From positions 1 through 51,950 of the IMG/VR virus record IMGVR_UViG_2909303794_000011: a stretch of 51,950 nucleotides of DNA, one strand, 5' to 3'. Each line of letters begins with the position of its first letter. Position 1 is the stretch's first letter. This document shows, piece after piece, positions 39,001 through 45,000 of this stretch. Position numbers: made by a program. The DNA comes from a virus. Taxonomy: Duplodnaviria; Heunggongvirae; Uroviricota; Caudoviricetes.

Positions 39001-42000
39001 ACTGGCTTTGAAGTACGGGTCCTCGCGTCTGGCTGCAGATACCGCAGGAACTTCCCAGGATTCTTCGAAATGACGATCCGGACCAAAGAACGTGACAGCC
39101 TGTTTCACAAATTGTGTGCCGCTGTTACCCATCGCAGATACCCAGCCCGCGTAGCGTTTCACACCTTCCAGCATGGTTTCGGGTTTTACCCCCTCATTCA
39201 AACGGGCTTTCCAAGCTTTGAAGGCTGCAGATTTTGAATTGCCACCAGCACGTTTGGGATAGGCCAGCCATGCCTGCTCAAACTCCGGAGAGTATTCCGG
39301 TCGGTTTGAACGAACTCGCACGGACTCATCAACTGATGCACCAACAGCTATTGGTTCATTGACTGGTTCTTTGACTGGTTCAAAAGAGTGACTGGTTCTG
39401 GGTGAATCTCCTGCACTACCCCCTGGTGCAACTCCTGCACTACCTGGTGAATTTGCTGCACCAGATAGTGAATTATTTGCACTACCCCCTAGTGAATCTC
39501 CTGCACCATCCAGATGAAGGAGATAGATATTACTTGAGTTACCTTTTTCACCTTTCCGGGTGACTTTTTTTACCAGCCCGGACTCACAAAGGGCCGCAAT
39601 ATGATTCATCACAGAACGTTTGCTAATCTCGCACTGGTCAGCAATATGCTGGTAGCTGGGCCAGCACTCACCCTGATCACTGGCATTATCAGCCAGCTTG
39701 ATCAGAACCAGTTTTCGCAATGGATTACCCACTCGAATTTTCATCGCTTTAACCATCAGCTCCATACTCATGCTGCACCTCCGAGATGCTTCATGTTTTT
39801 TCCGGAGCGAAAGGCTATAAGCGGCATACTGACGCGGTAATTACGGCCCAGCGGTTCACAAATCACCTTCTGACATTCACGGTCAACCAGGCTAACACGT
39901 AGAACATGCCCTGCAGGCGTGGTGTACCACTGACCCGGACGAGGACAACGGAAAGTCTGATTGGTAAAACGTTTGAAAATATTCCGGATCATTTGCGCCC
40001 CCTTACCTCTGAAGGGTTCAGCGACAAATTTATGAGGCAGGCCAGCGCCGAAGCATCATTAATATAGTCATATAAGCTAACAGCCAGCGGAGATTCGGCT
40101 TTTGCCAACATAGGATAAAGCTGCTGCAGCCAGACCTGATGAATTGATGAAATGTAGGAACAGAGAACGCTGGCGTTATGTGCAACGTCGCTCGGTACAG
40201 CGGGCTTTGAAAGCTGTTTCTCCATCTGGTTAAAGGCATTGATGTATGCCTCTTTGAACTGGGCAGCACGTTTACCCGTGAAACCCATAGCAAGAAACGC
40301 AAAGCCGTCGCGGGTTATTTGATAGCAAGGTAGTTTGCGGCCTGAAGCGTCGGTATAACCACTTAACACAAAATTGTGTTCAGCAAATTCAGCGGAGCAT
40401 TCAAGGTTTCGAATTCTATCTAAAACCCGCTCATGCCGTTTAGTAAAGTAGTTAGCAACTGCAAGAGATGTAGTGACAGCACGACCATTGATGATCGTGA
40501 TTTCAGGGTGAACAAAGGTTGGGATCGTAGCCATAATGGCAGCCTCGGTAGCAAGCTTAAAAAACTCACCACATAAGACGCCAATCATAGAGGTGGTGAG
40601 ACGTACAGAGTTGGCGTTACCGGCGGCTACCCTTACCGGCGCATCTTGCGATGCCCCTGTACGCCCCACCATAATTTGGGCGTGACAAAATAATGCGTAC
40701 AAAAAAACCGCATCTACGCGGTTGTACGCGGTAGCCTTCTCCAGGACGCCAATCCCGGCACCCGCTTTATAAGGTGCCTGAACAGTGTAACGTCCCGGAA
40801 TGGCAGAATCAATGTGCTGGTGGTCCTTCACACTCAACAAAATCACGCCTGAATTTCCACAAAGGACTAAAGCACTCATGCGGGTAGTCTTTGCGAAGAT
40901 AGATAACGCGCTGTGTTTCTGGCTCCCAACGAATAACATGGACATAAAGCCCTCTTCCGTCACGAAACCAGCGGTTAAGTTCCTGCACAACTCGCCCCCC
41001 ACAGTCAGGTAAAGTTCTCTGTGGTTACTTACAGCCAGGTGATTTGGTAATCTGCATTCATGCCGTAACAACAGGTGTTCAGCGACGCTGACCACCAGCT
41101 GTTGCGACAAACGGTTATTTGCCGTTAAACTGTTCATGCGTTAGTTTCTCCACAGACACAAAACGCCACGACGCCCGGAGCTGCACACTCGCGGGCGTCA
41201 CTCTTTTCTGGAGCGCAGAAAATTTTGTAGACCAGTGCCGCATGCTCCTGGAGCTTCGAAATTGACAGATACAATTCATCATTAATTGCTGTCTGCTCGT
41301 GTGGCTCCACTACCCCATCTTCGATTGCCGAACGAATCTGCTTTGAGTAACTCCCGATCTGTTCGATGACTTCCAGCAGGCGCTGGTTTATATCTGCGTT
41401 CTCTACTTCCTCAATTTCAGGAAGCGATACAAACACCCCACCAGCAGACTGTGCGACAGCATCCGCAATGTAGTGAGTGCCAGCAGCACGCTGTAAAATC
41501 ATTGCCCATCCCAGCGGGAAAATCTGATCGCCATCTGCACGAAGGCGGTTGAATAAAGCGTTCTCTGTAACATCCAGCCACTCAGCAGCTTCAGCGTAAC
41601 CCCCTGGCAACGCCGCGATGGTTTTTCTGACAGCTTTCACGTACCACTCAGGCTGTTTTTCCACTTTCCAGTGATGATTACCCACGGCTTACCTCCTGTT
41701 CCTGTGGTTTAAACCCATTCTGGTTTTGGCTAGATTGAAAACGTGCCGGATAAAGAATCTGCATTTCGCTGATTTCACCCTTAAAAAAATTGGCCAGACG
41801 TTCTGCAAGATCGATAGATGGAATTTGTTCCAGTCTTTCAATACGACTCAGCGTCGCTGGATTGACCTGAACGCCAGCAGCAACATGCTGCAAAGTAAGT
41901 CCGTGCGCCTTACGCACATTCCGTAATGGTGATTGCATATAACCTCCACATATTGCGTGATGAGCATATTATTTCACGCAAATATTTTGCGCAAGTTGAT

Positions 42001-45000
42001 TTGCTTAACGCGCAATAAAGAAATGTAATAAACGCATGAACATAGGAAATCGAGTCAGACAACTTCGCCAGGCGAAGAACATGAAAATCGCCGATCTAGC
42101 TGAAGCAATAGGAGTGGATGCGGCGAATATCTCGCGCCTGGAAACAGGTAAGCAGAAACAATTCACTGAGCAAGCCCTGAGTAATATTGCCAGGAGCTTA
42201 GGTGTTGATATTGCTGATCTCTTTACCTCAGACGTCAAAAGTAATACTGTATGTAAAAACAGTATTAGTGAGGATGTTGCGCAGGTGAAGGATGTATTCC
42301 GTATTGAAATGCTGGATGTCAGTGCCAGTGCGGGAAATGGCCTTATCCAGGGCGGTGATGTCATTGATGTGATTCATGCCATTGAATACAGAACTGATAA
42401 TGCTGTATCGATGTTTGGCGGACGACCAGCCAATCACATTAAAGTTATCAACGTTCGTGGGGACAGTATGTGTCCAACCATTGAGCCAGGAGATCTCATC
42501 TTCGTTGATGTCAGTATCAATCAGTTTGATGGAGATGGTATCTATGTATTTGGTTTTGATGATAAAATTTATGTCAAACGACTGCAAATGATACCTGACA
42601 AACTACTGGTGATTTCTGATAACCAGATTTACCGTGAATGGGGAATTACCAGCGAAAATGAACACCGGTTTATGGTCTTTGGAAAGGTCTTAATCAGCCA
42701 GTCACAAACCCTTAAGCGACACAATTAACCCTTACCTCCTCATCAATTAGCCACCCGAAGGTGGCTTTTCATTATCTATTAAATTGCATATCTCGCAATA
42801 AAACACTTGCATAATGCGCAACTTCATTTTATCTTTCTTTCCAGACCAACAAACAAGGTACTAACAAAATTTGGTTGTAACACGGCGTATGGCACATGCG
42901 TCGTTAGCGGTCTGGGGACGTTAAAGGGGACAATCCACTCCTTGCTCGGGCAAACAAACCAGGTAGCCGGAATGTGCAAGTCAATGATGATGCTGATAAG
43001 ACGCCTAACCAGCGTGGCGATTCGGTTTGACGCCTGGGAAGAGACCAGGGTGCAACGATGAGGGCATTTATGGAGCCGCGACAAAGTGTGGTGCCGTAAC
43101 TGGCTAAGTGCTCTCAGCGTTGTGGTAATCCGCGAAATGGCGCGGCGGTAAGTATGGCGGGGTTACTCTTTCCCCGTTGAGGACACCGGATTGTCAGGTT
43201 GACCATACGCCTGAGTGACAACCCCACCACAACAGCCACTGCTTTGGAGGTACCAGTTTGTACACTTGCTTCCGGCTGGTACCGCTCTTTTTACAAAACA
43301 GAGAAGAGCATCACCGGACGACGGGCTCATAACCCAATCCATCCGGGCGGCTGCCACCGCAGGTGTTCTTCTCTGTTTTGTGGAGAAACTAACCGACCTT
43401 GCAGGGTCGATATGATGAGGAGCAGCAAAATGGCTAGTGAACGCAGTACTGATGTGCAGGCATTTATCGGGGAGCTGGACGGCGGCGTATTTGAAACCAA
43501 AATCGGCGCAGTTCTAAGTGAAGTCGCTTCCGGTGTGATGAACACGAAAACCAAAGGGAAGGTCTCACTCAATCTGGAAATCGAACCGTTTGATGAGAAC
43601 CGTGTGAAAATCAAACACAAACTCTCATATGTTCGCCCAACTAACCGCGGGAAAATTTCCGAAGAAGACACCACCGAAACGCCGATGTATGTCAATCGCG
43701 GTGGTCGCCTGACTATTCTGCAGGAAGACCAGGGACAATTACTGACTCTTGCCGGTGAACCTGACGGAAAACTCCGCGCAGCTGGTCGTTAATATCGTTT
43801 TTAATAAACTGATTATTTATCTCATCACTGAATATCTTTATATAGTGAGGACTTATTATGTCTCAGAACTTAGACGCAACCGCAATTAATCAAATCCATG
43901 CCCTTATTTCTGCTCAGGGTGTTAATGAAATTATCAGTAAGATTGGTGCCGATGCTGTGGCATTGCCTGAGAATTTCCGCATTCATGATCTGGAAAAATT
44001 TAATTTAAATCGCTTCCGTTTCCGTGGTGCGCTTTCCACTGCCAGCATCGATGACTTTACCCGTTATTCTAAAGATCTTGCAGATGAAGGCACCCGCTGC
44101 TTTATCGATGCCGATAATATGCGAGCCGTCAGTGTGCTTAACCTGGGTACTATTGATGAACCAGGTCACGCAGATAACACCGCCACTCTCAAACTGAAAA
44201 AGACAGCACCGTTCTCTGCTCTGTTGTCTGTTAATGGCGAGCGTCATTCCCAGAAGTCACTGGCAGAATGGATTGAAGACTGGGCCGACTACCTTGTGGG
44301 CTTTGATGCTAATGGTGACGCTATTCAGGCAACAAAAGCGGCTGCGGCTGTCCGTAAAATCACGATTGAAGCAAACCAGACCGCTGATTTTGAAGATAAT
44401 GACTTCAGCGGCAAACGCTCCCTGATGGAGTCTGTCGAAGCGAAAACCAAAGATATTATGCCAGTGGCATTTGAATTTAAATGCGTTCCGTTTGAAGGCC
44501 TGAAAGAACGTCCGTTTAAATTACGCCTCAGCATTATTACTGGCGATCGTCCTGTACTGGTTCTGCGCATTATTCAGCTGGAGGCGGTGCAGGAAGAAAT
44601 GGCTAACGAATTTCGTGATCTGCTTGTTGAGAAATACAAAGACAGCAAAGTAGAAACCTTTATTGGTACTTTCACCGCCTGATTTCATTACTGCAAATGC
44701 CCCTGCGGGGGCATTTATGGAAACGTAATTAACTCAATAATCGCCGGATGGTGAGGGCTTACTTTTACCCGAATTCAGCGCGGTGCAGCGCATATAAAGT
44801 GGAGAACGAAATGTCATTTATTAAAACTTTTTCCGGGAAGCATTTTTATTATGACAAGATAAATAAAGACGACATCGTGATTAACGATATCGCGGTTTCC
44901 CTTTCAAATATCTGTCGCTTTGCAGGACATCTTTCACACTTCTACAGTGTCGCCCAGCATGCGGTGCTTTGCAGCCAGCTGGTGCCGCAGGAATTTGCTT

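What the first reader, a model, noticed from the sequence alone, without database searches (positions are those of the whole stretch)
41939..42821. Operator-like palindromes flank cI on both sides
Two 29-bp palindromes with TTGCG-type half-sites lie between cro and cI. After the cI terminator, two further TTGC-N7-GCAA elements appear at 42784-42798 and 42807-42821, where an OL/pL module would be expected. cI has a LexA-like autocleavage domain, so the switch should be SOS-inducible.
Basis: partly seen in the sequence, partly recalled or inferred. Interest (0 to 1): 0.4.

Follow-up and report, generated by a model that had tools for sequence, protein, structure and literature searches.

The report
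Prophage repressor operators plus hidden LexA site
The repeats on both sides of the prophage repressor gene look like real repressor-binding sites of an ordinary lambda-type lysis/lysogeny switch, but the repressor gene also carries a strongly conserved binding site for the host DNA-damage regulator LexA, which may drive a second, shorter product.

Summary
All the elements sit at the stated coordinates, and three exact TTGC-N7-GCAA sites in about 200 bp of intergenic DNA has a chance probability of about 7e-8.

The region is the immunity module of a common E. coli/Shigella lambdoid prophage (mEp460/SfII type).
- Two canonical sites lie at OR (41953-67 and 42001-15) and two at OL (42784-98 and 42807-21).
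- An invariant TTGCGCAAG core lies at 41987-95.
- The right arm of the first 29-bp palindrome is lineage-specific.
- Inferred promoter spacings (pR, a leaderless pRM, pL) are conserved without gaps. The TTGC half-sites double as -35 hexamers.

cI keeps the Ala-Gly cleavage site and the Ser/Lys dyad, so SOS induction is plausible.

One feature was unexpected. A near-consensus LexA box (42245-64, one base from the umuD box) sits in the cI linker. It is at the same nucleotide in 25 of 30 loci checked (28 with 54-100% cI identity), amid variable sequence. Around it are a umuD-like promoter geometry, a Shine-Dalgarno-like stretch and an in-frame GTG/ATG. This suggests a nested, LexA-repressed gene for a C-terminal-domain-only product.

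The operators are ordinary. The LexA feature is inferred, not shown.

The parts
41678..41938 (-). cro-like gene (86 aa, HTH_3), first gene of the rightward lytic operon (cro, cII/YmfL, C4/isrK-ant, replication genes)
   Evidence: ORF list. Pfam HTH_3 E=1e-10. Annotated Cro in mEp460, SfII and PhiR47_1.
41953..41967 (.). Operator OR-a (TTGCGTGATGAGCAT). It overlaps the last 2 nt of the inferred pR -10 and the pR start region, so a bound repressor would block pR.
   Evidence: Same position in all 26 distinct loci, consensus TTGCGtatTacGCAT. PWM rank 6 of 51,936. SfII differs only in the central bases.
41966..41994 (-). Inferred pR. The -35 is TTGCGC (bottom strand, 41989-41994), the spacer is 17 nt, the -10 is TAATAT (bottom strand, 41966-41971), and the start is near 41958-41961.
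   Evidence: Read from the sequence. The hexamers and the 17-nt spacing recur in the homologs: TA(A/T)(T/C)AT -10 and TTGCGC -35 (the pR columns there are printed 1 nt off). No transcript mapping.
41974..41981 (.). It is a lineage-specific half-site, at best a weak extra site (41967-41981).
   Evidence: Present only in the window, SfII, L008, L009 and L010 (cI at least 93% identical); the column is not conserved otherwise. PWM score 3.3, rank 79.
41987..42001 (.). Central element TTGCGCAAGTTGATT. The invariant palindromic core TTGCGCAAG supplies the pR -35. It is also a possible non-canonical third operator centred 42 bp upstream of the cI ATG.
   Evidence: Among the most conserved blocks of the whole intergenic region. 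The right half is GCTT/GCAT in several loci. PWM score is only 2.7, rank 98. The role is inferred.
42001..42015 (.). Operator OR-b (TTGCTTAACGCGCAA). It overlaps the -35 and spacer of the inferred pRM, so occupancy would shut off cI transcription.
   Evidence: Exact TTGC-N7-GCAA. Conserved at the same offset in the homologs. PWM rank 4.
42001..42036 (+). Inferred pRM: -35 TTGCTT (42001-06), 17-nt spacer, -10 TGTAAT (42024-29), then 6 nt to the A of the cI ATG (42036). This implies a leaderless cI mRNA; no Shine-Dalgarno sequence is visible.
   Evidence: TGTAAT-N6-ATG in 21 of 27 loci and TTAAAT in 4. Lambda pRM has the same TAGATT-N6-ATG geometry (own knowledge). Not mapped.
42036..42728 (+). 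cI repressor gene (230 aa): N-terminal five-helix HTH (residues 1-62), linker, and C-terminal S24 self-cleavage domain. Ala99-Gly100 is at 42330-42335, Ser144 at 42465-67, Lys181 at 42576-78.
   Evidence: Pfam HTH_3 and Peptidase_S24. Invariant A99, G100, S144, K181 and recognition helix. UmuD' is the closest solved C-terminal domain. NTD helices from the model, whose confidence there is moderate only.
42245..42264 (.). LexA (SOS) box TACTGTATGTAAAAACAGTA inside the cI linker, codons 70-77.
   Evidence: Exact TACTGT-N8-ACAGTA; with up to one mismatch the pattern finds 2 hits against 0.06 expected. At nt 210 of the ORF (207 in L026) in 25 of 30 loci checked, 28 of them with 54-100% cI identity. 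It is the most conserved DNA block in a variable linker, including third codon positions. The 20-mer in SfII, L008, L010 and L014 is identical to the umuD and sbmC boxes (PMC3009722 Table 4). Absent from relatives with about 40% identity and a different NTD.
42222..42287 (+). Inferred nested expression signals: -35 TTTACC (42222-27), 17-nt spacer, -10 TACTGT (42245-50, the left half of the LexA box), SD-like GAGGA (42270-74), in-frame GTG (42285, Val84). The predicted product is a C-terminal-domain-only protein of about 147 aa.
   Evidence: The umuD promoter of K-12 has the same layout: TTGATC-17-TACTGT, box, 19 nt, ATG. TTTACn-17-TACTGT occurs in about 17 of 27 loci and TACTGT itself in 22, with no indels upstream of the box. 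In-frame GTG/ATG/TTG lies at or near the CTD start in 24 of 27 distinct sequences listed, although GTG is only 21% of Val codons. Anti-SD pairing has a median of -7.1 against a background mean of -2.4 kcal/mol. Expression is not shown.
42749..42770 (+). Intrinsic terminator of cI.
   Evidence: 7-bp stem with 5 G-C pairs and a T run. A hairpin plus T run is conserved in the homologs. Annotated as a terminator in SfII.
42784..42798 (.). Operator OL-distal (TTGCATATCTCGCAA).
   Evidence: Exact match. PWM rank 2. About 20 of 29 loci have two (Pantoea: three) sites 22-24 bp apart at this place.
42807..42821 (.). Operator OL-proximal (TTGCATAATGCGCAA). Its TTGCAT is the inferred pL -35.
   Evidence: Exact match. 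PWM rank 1. Conserved pairing with a -10 located 17 nt downstream.
42807..42843 (+). Inferred pL: -35 TTGCAT (42807-12), 17-nt spacer, -10 TATCTT (42830-35), start near 42842. It reads into the leader and yfdP-yfdQ-yfdR.
   Evidence: TTGCnn-17-TAnnnT in nearly all homologs. Downstream genes are on the + strand. Not mapped.

Best explanation
This is the immunity switch of a lambdoid prophage of the mEp460/SfII immunity type. cI (+ strand) and cro (- strand) are transcribed divergently from a 97-bp control region.

The repressor's target, and by analogy Cro's, is a 15-bp inverted repeat, TTGCG-N5-CGCA(A/T). There are four good copies.
- OR-a (41953-67) sits over the pR -10 and start, so it blocks lytic rightward transcription.
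- OR-b (42001-15) sits over the -35 of pRM, so it limits or shuts off cI synthesis.
- OL-distal (42784-98) and OL-proximal (42807-21) lie just after the cI terminator. The proximal one forms the pL -35, so cI blocks the leftward early operon (leader, yfdP, yfdQ, yfdR...).

Between OR-a and OR-b lies an invariant TTGCGCAAG core. It supplies the pR -35. It may also be a weak third site, centred at -42 of pRM, that is filled cooperatively.

The cI mRNA is probably leaderless.

Induction:
- cI carries the Ala-Gly site and Ser/Lys dyad for RecA-stimulated self-cleavage.
- A conserved LexA box in the cI linker overlaps an internal, umuD-like + strand promoter, followed by an SD-like stretch and an in-frame start codon. 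LexA cleavage would therefore most likely switch on a C-terminal-domain-only cI fragment.

Shown here: presence, positions, statistical excess and cross-genus conservation of all these elements.

Inferred: which protein binds where, transcription start points, and any expression or role of the internal product.
For: - Identity of the region: 97-99% DNA identity to mEp460, the PhiR phages, Stx2a/Stx2k phages and 910 complete E. coli genomes.
- Domain content of cI, cro and cII.
- Site statistics.
- In SfII, substitutions fall in the central bases of all four sites.
- An ungapped alignment of 26 distinct control regions from Escherichia, Shigella, Salmonella, Klebsiella, Citrobacter, Kluyvera, Pantoea, Proteus, Serratia and others gives the consensus TTGCGtatTacGCAT ... 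TTGCGCAAGTT..TTTGC.....CGCAA ... TGTAAT-N6-ATG.
- Paired sites 22-24 bp apart lie after the terminator in about 20 of 29 loci.
- Invariant recognition helix and catalytic residues.
- Promoter hexamers with fixed 17-nt spacers.
- LexA box conservation, its identity to the umuD box and the matching umuD layout.
- Internal start codon and SD enrichment.
- The two Dryocola loci without a good box also lack the start codon.
Against: - No experiment: no footprint, no transcription start sites, no LexA binding.
- The simple consensus scan found none of my three main promoters at its 9-of-12 threshold. The pRM -10 (TGTAAT) and the internal -10 (TACTGT) are weak; TGTAAT lacks the usual A at position 2.
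- OR has only two canonical sites, 48 bp apart, unlike the three of lambda. How pRM is kept active with a good operator on its -35 is unexplained.
- The central element scores poorly as an operator.
- BLAST finds no similarity between the cI NTD and Cro, so shared site recognition is an assumption.
- Promoter scoring around the LexA box favours the + strand only slightly: 7.9 against 7.3 of 12.
- The Klebsiella phage versions have a poor SD.
Confidence: 0.75

Rival explanations
1. Each 29-bp palindrome (41953-81 and 41987-42015) is one operator, bound through its outer TTCGC-type ends (TTGCG...CGCAA, 19 bp apart), for example by a dimer of dimers.
For: Both 29-bp palindromes exist. The outer TTGCG and CGCAA of the second one are conserved in nearly all homologs.
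Against: The right arm of the first palindrome is lost in every relative below about 93% cI identity, while TTGCG-N5-CGCAT at its left end stays intact. The OL sites are plain 15-bp units 22-24 bp apart, with no 29-bp partner. The GCAT at 41964-67 and the TTGC at 42001-04, internal to the 29-mers, are as conserved as the outer ends.
Confidence: 0.07
2. OR works like lambda OR, with three functional sites. The central element (41987-42001) is the OR2 counterpart. cI bound there cooperatively with OR-a (centres 34 bp apart) would cover the pR -35 and activate pRM from -42. OR-b would be the OR3 counterpart for negative autoregulation and for Cro. This refines the main model rather than excluding it.
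For: TTGCGCAAG is invariant beyond what a -35 hexamer needs. Its right half reads GCAT or GCTT in several loci, making a near-complete site (L011, L013, L005). Its centre is 42 bp from the conserved TGTAAT-N6-ATG start, the class II activator position used by lambda cI at OR2 (own knowledge).
Against: Its PWM score is 2.7, rank 98. It overlaps OR-b by 1 bp, with centres 14 bp apart, so the two could hardly be filled together. No canonical site exists at 23-24 bp spacing from OR-a (tested by eye and outputs).
Confidence: 0.35
3. The LexA box is real, but it does not drive a nested gene. It may act as a roadblock or brake on pRM transcripts. It may instead drive an antisense transcript toward cro. 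Or it may be a retained relic of a fusion between an HTH domain and a umuD-like cassette.
For: The box is palindromic, so its orientation is not fixed. The minus strand also gives 7-9 of 12 promoter matches in some loci. The cI C-terminal domain is UmuD-like and the box equals the umuD box, which fits a fusion origin.
Against: A relic would not stay invariant at synonymous sites over 54-97% protein divergence. Minus-strand promoter candidates have no common position. A roadblock role does not explain the indel-free 17-nt spacing to TTTAC, the SD-like stretch or the start-codon bias.
Confidence: 0.3
4. The repeats are only promoter parts (TTGCnn as -35 hexamers) and chance palindromes, not repressor sites.
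For: Three of the TTGC motifs coincide with inferred -35 hexamers.
Against: The partner GCAA half 11 nt away is conserved just as well and has no promoter role. OR-a and OL-distal are not at -35 positions. Site excess has P about 7e-8. A PWM trained on other genera picks exactly these sites.
Confidence: 0.03

Closest known systems
Phage lambda OR/OL-cI-Cro switch (also P22, 434, 933W)
   Same: - Divergent cI and cro around a short control region.
- Inverted-repeat operators overlapping pR and pRM.
- A second operator cluster at pL, downstream of cI on the same strand.
- Adjacent OL sites 22-24 bp apart, as needed for pairwise cooperativity.
- A -10-N6-ATG geometry implying leaderless cI mRNA.
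- An S24 self-cleaving C-terminal domain.
(The lambda facts are from my own knowledge.)
   Different: - Different specificity: 15-bp TTGCG-N5-CGCAA, against 17 bp in lambda, 14 bp ACAA-N6-TTGT in 434 and 18 bp in P22.
- Only two canonical sites at OR, 48 bp apart, plus a non-canonical core, and two at OL (three in the Pantoea relatives).
- The operator half-site itself serves as the -35 of pL, pRM and pR.
- No N gene. CII is of the 186/CP76 (YmfL) family.
- No solved or characterised close homolog of the DNA-binding domain.
E. coli umuDC promoter and operator
   Same: - Identical or one-base-different 20-bp LexA box.
- The -10 is TACTGT inside the box, 17 nt after a TT-rich -35.
- About 20 nt from the box to the start codon of a roughly 140-aa S24 protein with a cleavage site near its N terminus.
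   Different: Here the cassette lies inside a larger reading frame, in frame with an upstream HTH domain. There is no umuC partner. The product would be a repressor fragment, not a polymerase subunit. Expression is unproven.
LexA-controlled antirepressors (coliphage 186 Tum; Gifsy GfoA/GfhA, PMC3121763)
   Same: Prophage induction is tied directly to LexA cleavage through a LexA-repressed phage gene whose product inactivates the repressor.
   Different: In those systems the antirepressor is a separate gene, and the Gifsy repressors lack a cleavage domain. Here the candidate LexA-controlled product is the repressor's own C-terminal domain, and the full-length repressor remains cleavable.
P1/P7 immI (c4 RNA and ant) and Gifsy-1 isrK-anrP
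   Same: Rfam C4 (68 bits) and isrK (60 bits) hits lie just upstream of a Rha/Ant-type antirepressor domain, downstream of cII.
   Different: It is a secondary immunity layer next to a lambda-type cI/cro switch. It is not part of the operators under study and was not analysed further.

Membership tests
Lambdoid cI/Cro bistable switch | Divergent genes for an HTH+S24 repressor and a small HTH Cro, separated by a short control region | tested here: met
   ORFs, Pfam, and annotation of 97-99% identical phages.
Lambdoid cI/Cro bistable switch | Repeated inverted-repeat operators overlapping the divergent promoters | tested here: met
   Two canonical 15-bp sites overlap the inferred pR start and the pRM -35. 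They are conserved in 26 distinct loci.
Lambdoid cI/Cro bistable switch | Three tandem operators at OR spaced about 23-24 bp apart (lambda, 434, P22 pattern) | tested here: not met
   There are only two canonical sites, 48 bp apart. The sequence at the midpoint is not conserved as a site. The central TTGCGCAAG element scores 2.7.
Lambdoid cI/Cro bistable switch | A second operator cluster at a leftward early promoter beyond cI | tested here: met
   Two sites 23 bp apart after the terminator. The proximal one forms the -35 of TTGCAT-17-TATCTT. The arrangement recurs in about 20 of 29 loci.
Lambdoid cI/Cro bistable switch | cI and Cro bind these operators with different site preferences | not testable with these tools
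   Needs EMSA or footprinting.
LexA/cI/UmuD S24 self-cleaving proteins | Ala-Gly (or Cys-Gly) scissile bond plus a Ser nucleophile and Lys general base | tested here: met
   A99-G100, S144 (GDSM) and K181 (VKRL) are invariant in alignment A3. Peptidase_S24 E=6e-19. UmuD' is the best solved match.
LexA/cI/UmuD S24 self-cleaving proteins | RecA*-stimulated cleavage in vivo | not testable with these tools
   Needs a cleavage assay or induction test.
Gammaproteobacterial SOS (LexA) box | TACTG(TA)5CAGTA-type 20-mer, CTGT-N8-ACAG | tested here: met
   TACTGTATGTAAAAACAGTA at 42245-64. It is one base from the umuD/sbmC box. It is conserved in 25 of 30 loci checked (28 of them with 54-100% cI identity).
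Gammaproteobacterial SOS (LexA) box | Overlaps a promoter that it represses | tested here: inconclusive
   A conserved TTTACn-17-TACTGT geometry equals that of umuD. However, the hexamers are weak and the strand preference is small.
Rfam RNA families (for the pL leader) | Covariance-model match at or above gathering score | tested here: not met
   No hit in 42700-43500 better than E=1.6. The only gathering-level hits in the window are ALIL, C4 and isrK elsewhere.

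The most novel reading that the evidence does not exclude
The cI gene contains a nested, LexA-repressed gene. After DNA damage, LexA cleavage would open an internal umuD-like promoter (TTTACC-17-TACTGT, box 42245-64). Translation from the in-frame GTG (42285) would then give a UmuD-sized C-terminal-domain-only fragment of the repressor. That fragment could act as a built-in antirepressor in two ways. It could form mixed dimers with full-length cI that carry only one DNA-binding domain. Or it could cleave full-length cI in trans, as shown in vitro for LexA and lambda cI C-terminal fragments (Kim and Little 1993, from my own knowledge). Induction of this widespread prophage family would then be gated by fast LexA cleavage as well as by slow cI self-cleavage.
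Probability: 0.35. Interest if true: 0.7.

Novelty: new variant of a known kind. Interest (0 to 1): 0.42.

Why it matters
The operators themselves add one more immunity specificity to the lambdoid catalogue. That is useful for annotation, because this module occurs in about 17% of complete E. coli genomes (910 of 5,426), in Shigella serotype-converting phage SfII and in several Stx2-converting phages. In those phages the switch sets the threshold for toxin release.

The conserved LexA box inside the repressor gene would matter more. If it drives a truncated repressor during the SOS response, it would be a new way of wiring prophage induction to LexA, and an example of regulatory DNA shaping a protein linker. 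It could also explain differences in inducibility among Stx and serotype-converting phages. It is directly testable with simple reporter, western-blot and synonymous-mutation experiments.

Tried and rejected
- **29-bp palindromes as the binding unit.** Rejected on conservation.
- **A canonical middle operator 23-24 bp from OR-a.** None found; CGCAAATATTTTGCG at 41977-91 scores -29.7 and its left part is not conserved.
- **Extra operators elsewhere in the prophage.** The hits at 48871, 40171 and 46469 lie inside ORFs and are within chance expectation.
- **A minus-strand promoter at the LexA box.** No consistent position across loci.
- **A LexA box in more distant cI relatives** (ST160, PhiR5_1, PSTCR7lys, HK639). 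Absent.
- **Literature.** No paper on these operators or on a LexA box in this cI was found with the terms tried. The searchable library is incomplete.
- **Solved structures.** No close relative of either DNA-binding domain.
- **BLAST of the cI NTD against Cro.** No alignment.
- **Single-sequence AlphaFold model of cI.** Poor (pLDDT 38); only the NTD helices are usable.
- **Second viral-contig scan with cI.** Returned only near-identical copies, so it added no diversity.
- **RS218 genome record.** Not in the collection.
- **K-12 CPS-53.** Lacks cI, cro and the leader.
- **Rfam on the pL leader.** Nothing.
- **Single-sequence folding of the 185-nt leader element.** Not significant: z = -0.67 on the + strand and 0.04 on the - strand.
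- **A small ORF through the leader element** (42807-43061). Rejected because homologs differ by indels that are not multiples of three.

Full report
**What is at the coordinates.**
- The 97-bp region between cro (41678-41938, - strand) and cI (42036-42728, + strand) contains TTGCGTGA-N13-TCACGCAA (41953-81) and TTGCGC-N17-GCGCAA (41987-42015).
- After the cI stop comes a terminator-like hairpin (42749-66 plus a T run).
- Two exact TTGC-N7-GCAA sites follow at 42784-98 and 42807-21. A third exact copy is the right half of the second palindrome, at 42001-15.
- The window holds 6 exact copies against 1.86 expected. Three of them lie in about 200 bp of intergenic DNA, which gives P about 7e-8.

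**What the region is.**
- The 1.9 kb around the finding is 97-99% identical to coliphage mEp460, the PhiR phages, Stx2k and Stx2a phages, and 91% identical to Shigella phage SfII.
- At least 80% of it is present in 910 of 5,426 complete E. coli genomes.
- cI has an Xre-type HTH plus Peptidase_S24. Cro is an 86-aa HTH_3 protein. The next gene is a CII of the 186/CP76 (YmfL) family.
- Genes downstream of cI on the + strand are yfdP, yfdQ and yfdR, the early-left operon.

This is a lambdoid immunity module, with the rightward operon on the - strand.

**Which unit is the operator.** I collected diverged homologs: four phages with 68-84% identical cI and 24 loci from one-genome-per-species contigs, with 54-97% identity in all but the three weakest or partial matches. 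These come from Citrobacter, Kluyvera, Klebsiella, Pantoea, Mixta, Rosenbergiella, Proteus, Serratia and others. The recognition helix (DAANISRLETGKQK) is unchanged in the five aligned cI proteins, so the DNA target should be the same.
- Anchored on the cI ATG, 26 distinct control regions align without a single gap.
- The consensus reads TTGCGtatTacGCAT, then aTTAt, then about 16 variable bases, then TTGCGCAAGTTga, then TTTGCataacaCGCAA, then about 8 bases, then TGTAAT, N6, ATG.
- Information content is high on TTGCG and CGCA(A/T) and low on the central 5-7 bases. This is the signature of a dimer-binding inverted repeat.
- SfII shows the same pattern in miniature: all its differences within the four sites fall in the central bases.
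- Downstream of the terminator, about 20 of 29 loci carry two such sites 22-24 bp apart; the Pantoea group carries three.
- A weight matrix built only from the other loci ranks the window's sites 1st (42807), 2nd (42784), 4th (42001) and 6th (41953) of 51,936 positions.

The inner halves score poorly, at ranks 79 and 98. The 15-bp site, not the 29-bp palindrome, is therefore the conserved unit.

**Promoters (inferred).** Three promoters with fixed 17-nt spacers recur in the homologs (the pR columns in that output are shifted by one base).
- pR, on the bottom strand: TTGCGC (41989-94), 17 nt, TAATAT (41966-71).
- pRM: TTGCTT (42001-06), 17 nt, TGTAAT (42024-29), then exactly 6 nt to the ATG.
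- pL: TTGCAT (42807-12), 17 nt, TATCTT (42830-35).

In each case a TTGC operator half doubles as the -35. OR-a overlaps the pR -10 and start. OR-b covers the pRM -35. OL-proximal covers the pL -35.

The TGTAAT-N6-ATG spacing with no Shine-Dalgarno sequence copies the lambda pRM geometry (my own knowledge) and implies a leaderless cI mRNA.

These calls are weak by consensus standards. The simple scan did not list them, and they need transcript mapping.

**Open point at OR.** There are only two canonical sites, 48 bp apart. Between them lies TTGCGCAAG (41987-95), among the most conserved blocks of the region.
- It gives the pR -35.
- Its invariance and palindromy suggest more than that.
- Read as a 15-mer (41987-42001), it is centred 42 bp upstream of the inferred cI start, where lambda cI at OR2 activates pRM.
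- In some loci its right half becomes GCAT or GCTT.
- However, it scores low and abuts OR-b.

I treat it as a possible cooperative third site (probability about 0.35).

**SOS control.** Ala99-Gly100, Ser144 and Lys181 are invariant, and UmuD' is the nearest solved relative of the C-terminal domain.

**The LexA box.** TACTGTATGTAAAAACAGTA lies at 42245-64, in the linker between the two cI domains.
- Allowing one mismatch, the pattern TACTGT-N8-ACAGTA finds 2 hits in the window against 0.06 expected.
- A box of this type lies at nucleotide 210 of the cI ORF (207 in L026) in 25 of 30 loci checked, 28 of them with 54-100% cI identity.
- In SfII, L008, L010 and L014 it is the exact 20-mer of the E. 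coli umuD and sbmC boxes (PMC3009722 Table 4).
- It is the most conserved DNA block in an otherwise variable linker, third codon positions included. The conserved peptide TVY(K/N)NS looks like a by-product of the DNA motif.
- Relatives with about 40% identity that share the C-terminal domain but have other N-terminal domains lack it.

**Signals around the box.**
- The region upstream of the box never has indels. It places TTTAC(C) exactly 17 nt before TACTGT, the same layout as the K-12 umuD promoter (TTGATC-17-TACTGT).
- Downstream of the box, where the protein sequence and length vary, 24 of the 27 distinct sequences listed have an in-frame GTG, ATG or TTG at or within three codons of the start of the C-terminal domain. 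GTG makes up only 21% of valine codons in these genes.
- This codon is preceded by a purine-rich stretch whose pairing to the anti-SD has a median of -7.1 kcal/mol. The background mean is -2.4, and only 3.7% of background positions are as strong.
- The two Dryocola loci without a good box have Gly at that codon.

Together this points to a nested, LexA-repressed gene for a fragment of about 147 aa that consists of the C-terminal domain only and keeps the cleavage site and active site.

Its role is speculative. It could be a dominant-negative partner or a trans-acting protease for full-length cI. A roadblock or relic explanation is not excluded. Promoter scoring favours the + strand only slightly. 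I found no paper describing this feature, but the searchable library is incomplete.

**Comparison with known systems.**
- The layout is that of lambda, P22 and 434. The specificity is new and experimentally uncharacterised, as far as I could find.
- OR departs from the three-site rule.
- The embedded LexA operator has no counterpart that I know of in lambdoid repressor genes.
- LexA-controlled induction is otherwise known through separate antirepressor genes, such as 186 Tum and the Gifsy antirepressors (PMC3121763).

**Verdict.** The operator finding is correct and ordinary: a new member of the lambda-type switch. The LexA box makes the module a new variant worth a bench test.

Noticed in passing
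window 42878-43062 (+), within the ORF-free pL leader 42842-43430: A conserved non-coding element of about 185 nt is the first thing transcribed from the inferred pL.
- The same element, about 79-83% identical, lies in P1/P7 between tRNA-Ile and ban, in phiV10/epsilon15-like phages, and in more than 120 IMG/VR contigs that share the exact 22-mer CCAGGTAGCCGGAATGTGCAAG.
- RNAalifold gives 42 pairs, 6 of them with compensatory changes. Invariant G-U pairs favour the + strand.
- Indels that are not multiples of three rule out a protein.
- There is no Rfam match, and single-sequence folding is not significant.
- The whole 589-nt leader folds with z = -4.7.
Its function is unknown. There is no N gene, so a cis-acting RNA is one idea.
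   Followed up: partly
window 43260-43291 (-) and 42869-43244: The published 'sRNA-17' of E. coli K1 RS218 (PMC7719688) maps here. Its stated 5' end equals the reverse complement of 43260-43291. The window carries a shortened version. The paper's qPCR primers (42869-90 and 43225-44) and its 'promoter' fragment span the + strand pL leader, including the conserved element. The signals reported there may therefore come from the pL transcript. Only 4 RNA-seq reads mapped in their own data.
   Followed up: partly
window 43249-43292 and 43293-43381 (+): A hairpin (GGTACCAG...CTGGTACC) followed by a T5 run, then a long hairpin with perfect 15-bp arms (43293-43307 and 43367-43381), lie between pL and yfdP (start about 43430). 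They look like terminators or attenuators in the early-left leader. This would call for some antitermination mechanism.
   Followed up: no
window 40589-40676 and 40701-40777 (-), inside ORF 39989-41137 (-): The Rfam C4 antisense RNA (68 bits) and isrK (60 bits) hits lie inside the 382-aa ORF that RefSeq annotates as a Rha family protein. They fall in the part Pfam calls Phage_ASH (residues 117-211). The 5' half of this ORF is probably RNA genes of a P1 immI-like or Gifsy isrK-anrP-like antirepressor module. The true Rha/Ant start is probably an internal Met near residue 205.
   Followed up: partly
window 34524-34543: A second LexA-like box lies here (bottom strand TACTGTAAAAATAAACAGTG, one mismatch to TACTGT-N8-ACAGTA). 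It covers codons 3-9 of the DNA methyltransferase ORF 33502-34551 (-) and again encodes N-T-V-K-I-N-S. This is possible SOS control of the phage methylase.
   Followed up: no
window 29907-30023 (+): An ALIL pseudoknot (Rfam, 121 bits), the frameshift signal of IS3-family transposases, indicates an insertion sequence inside the prophage.
   Followed up: no
window 46717-50544 (-): A 1,275-aa ORF lies beyond the early-left genes. It holds a chance operator-like match at 48871. Its identity and the prophage end and integrase were not examined.
   Followed up: no
L239 (E. coli K-12 CPS-53, 2466000-2480000): The K-12 cryptic prophage CPS-53 keeps yfdN/O and yfdP-T but has lost cI, cro, cII, the operators and the leader element. 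K-12 data therefore cannot inform on this switch.
   Followed up: yes
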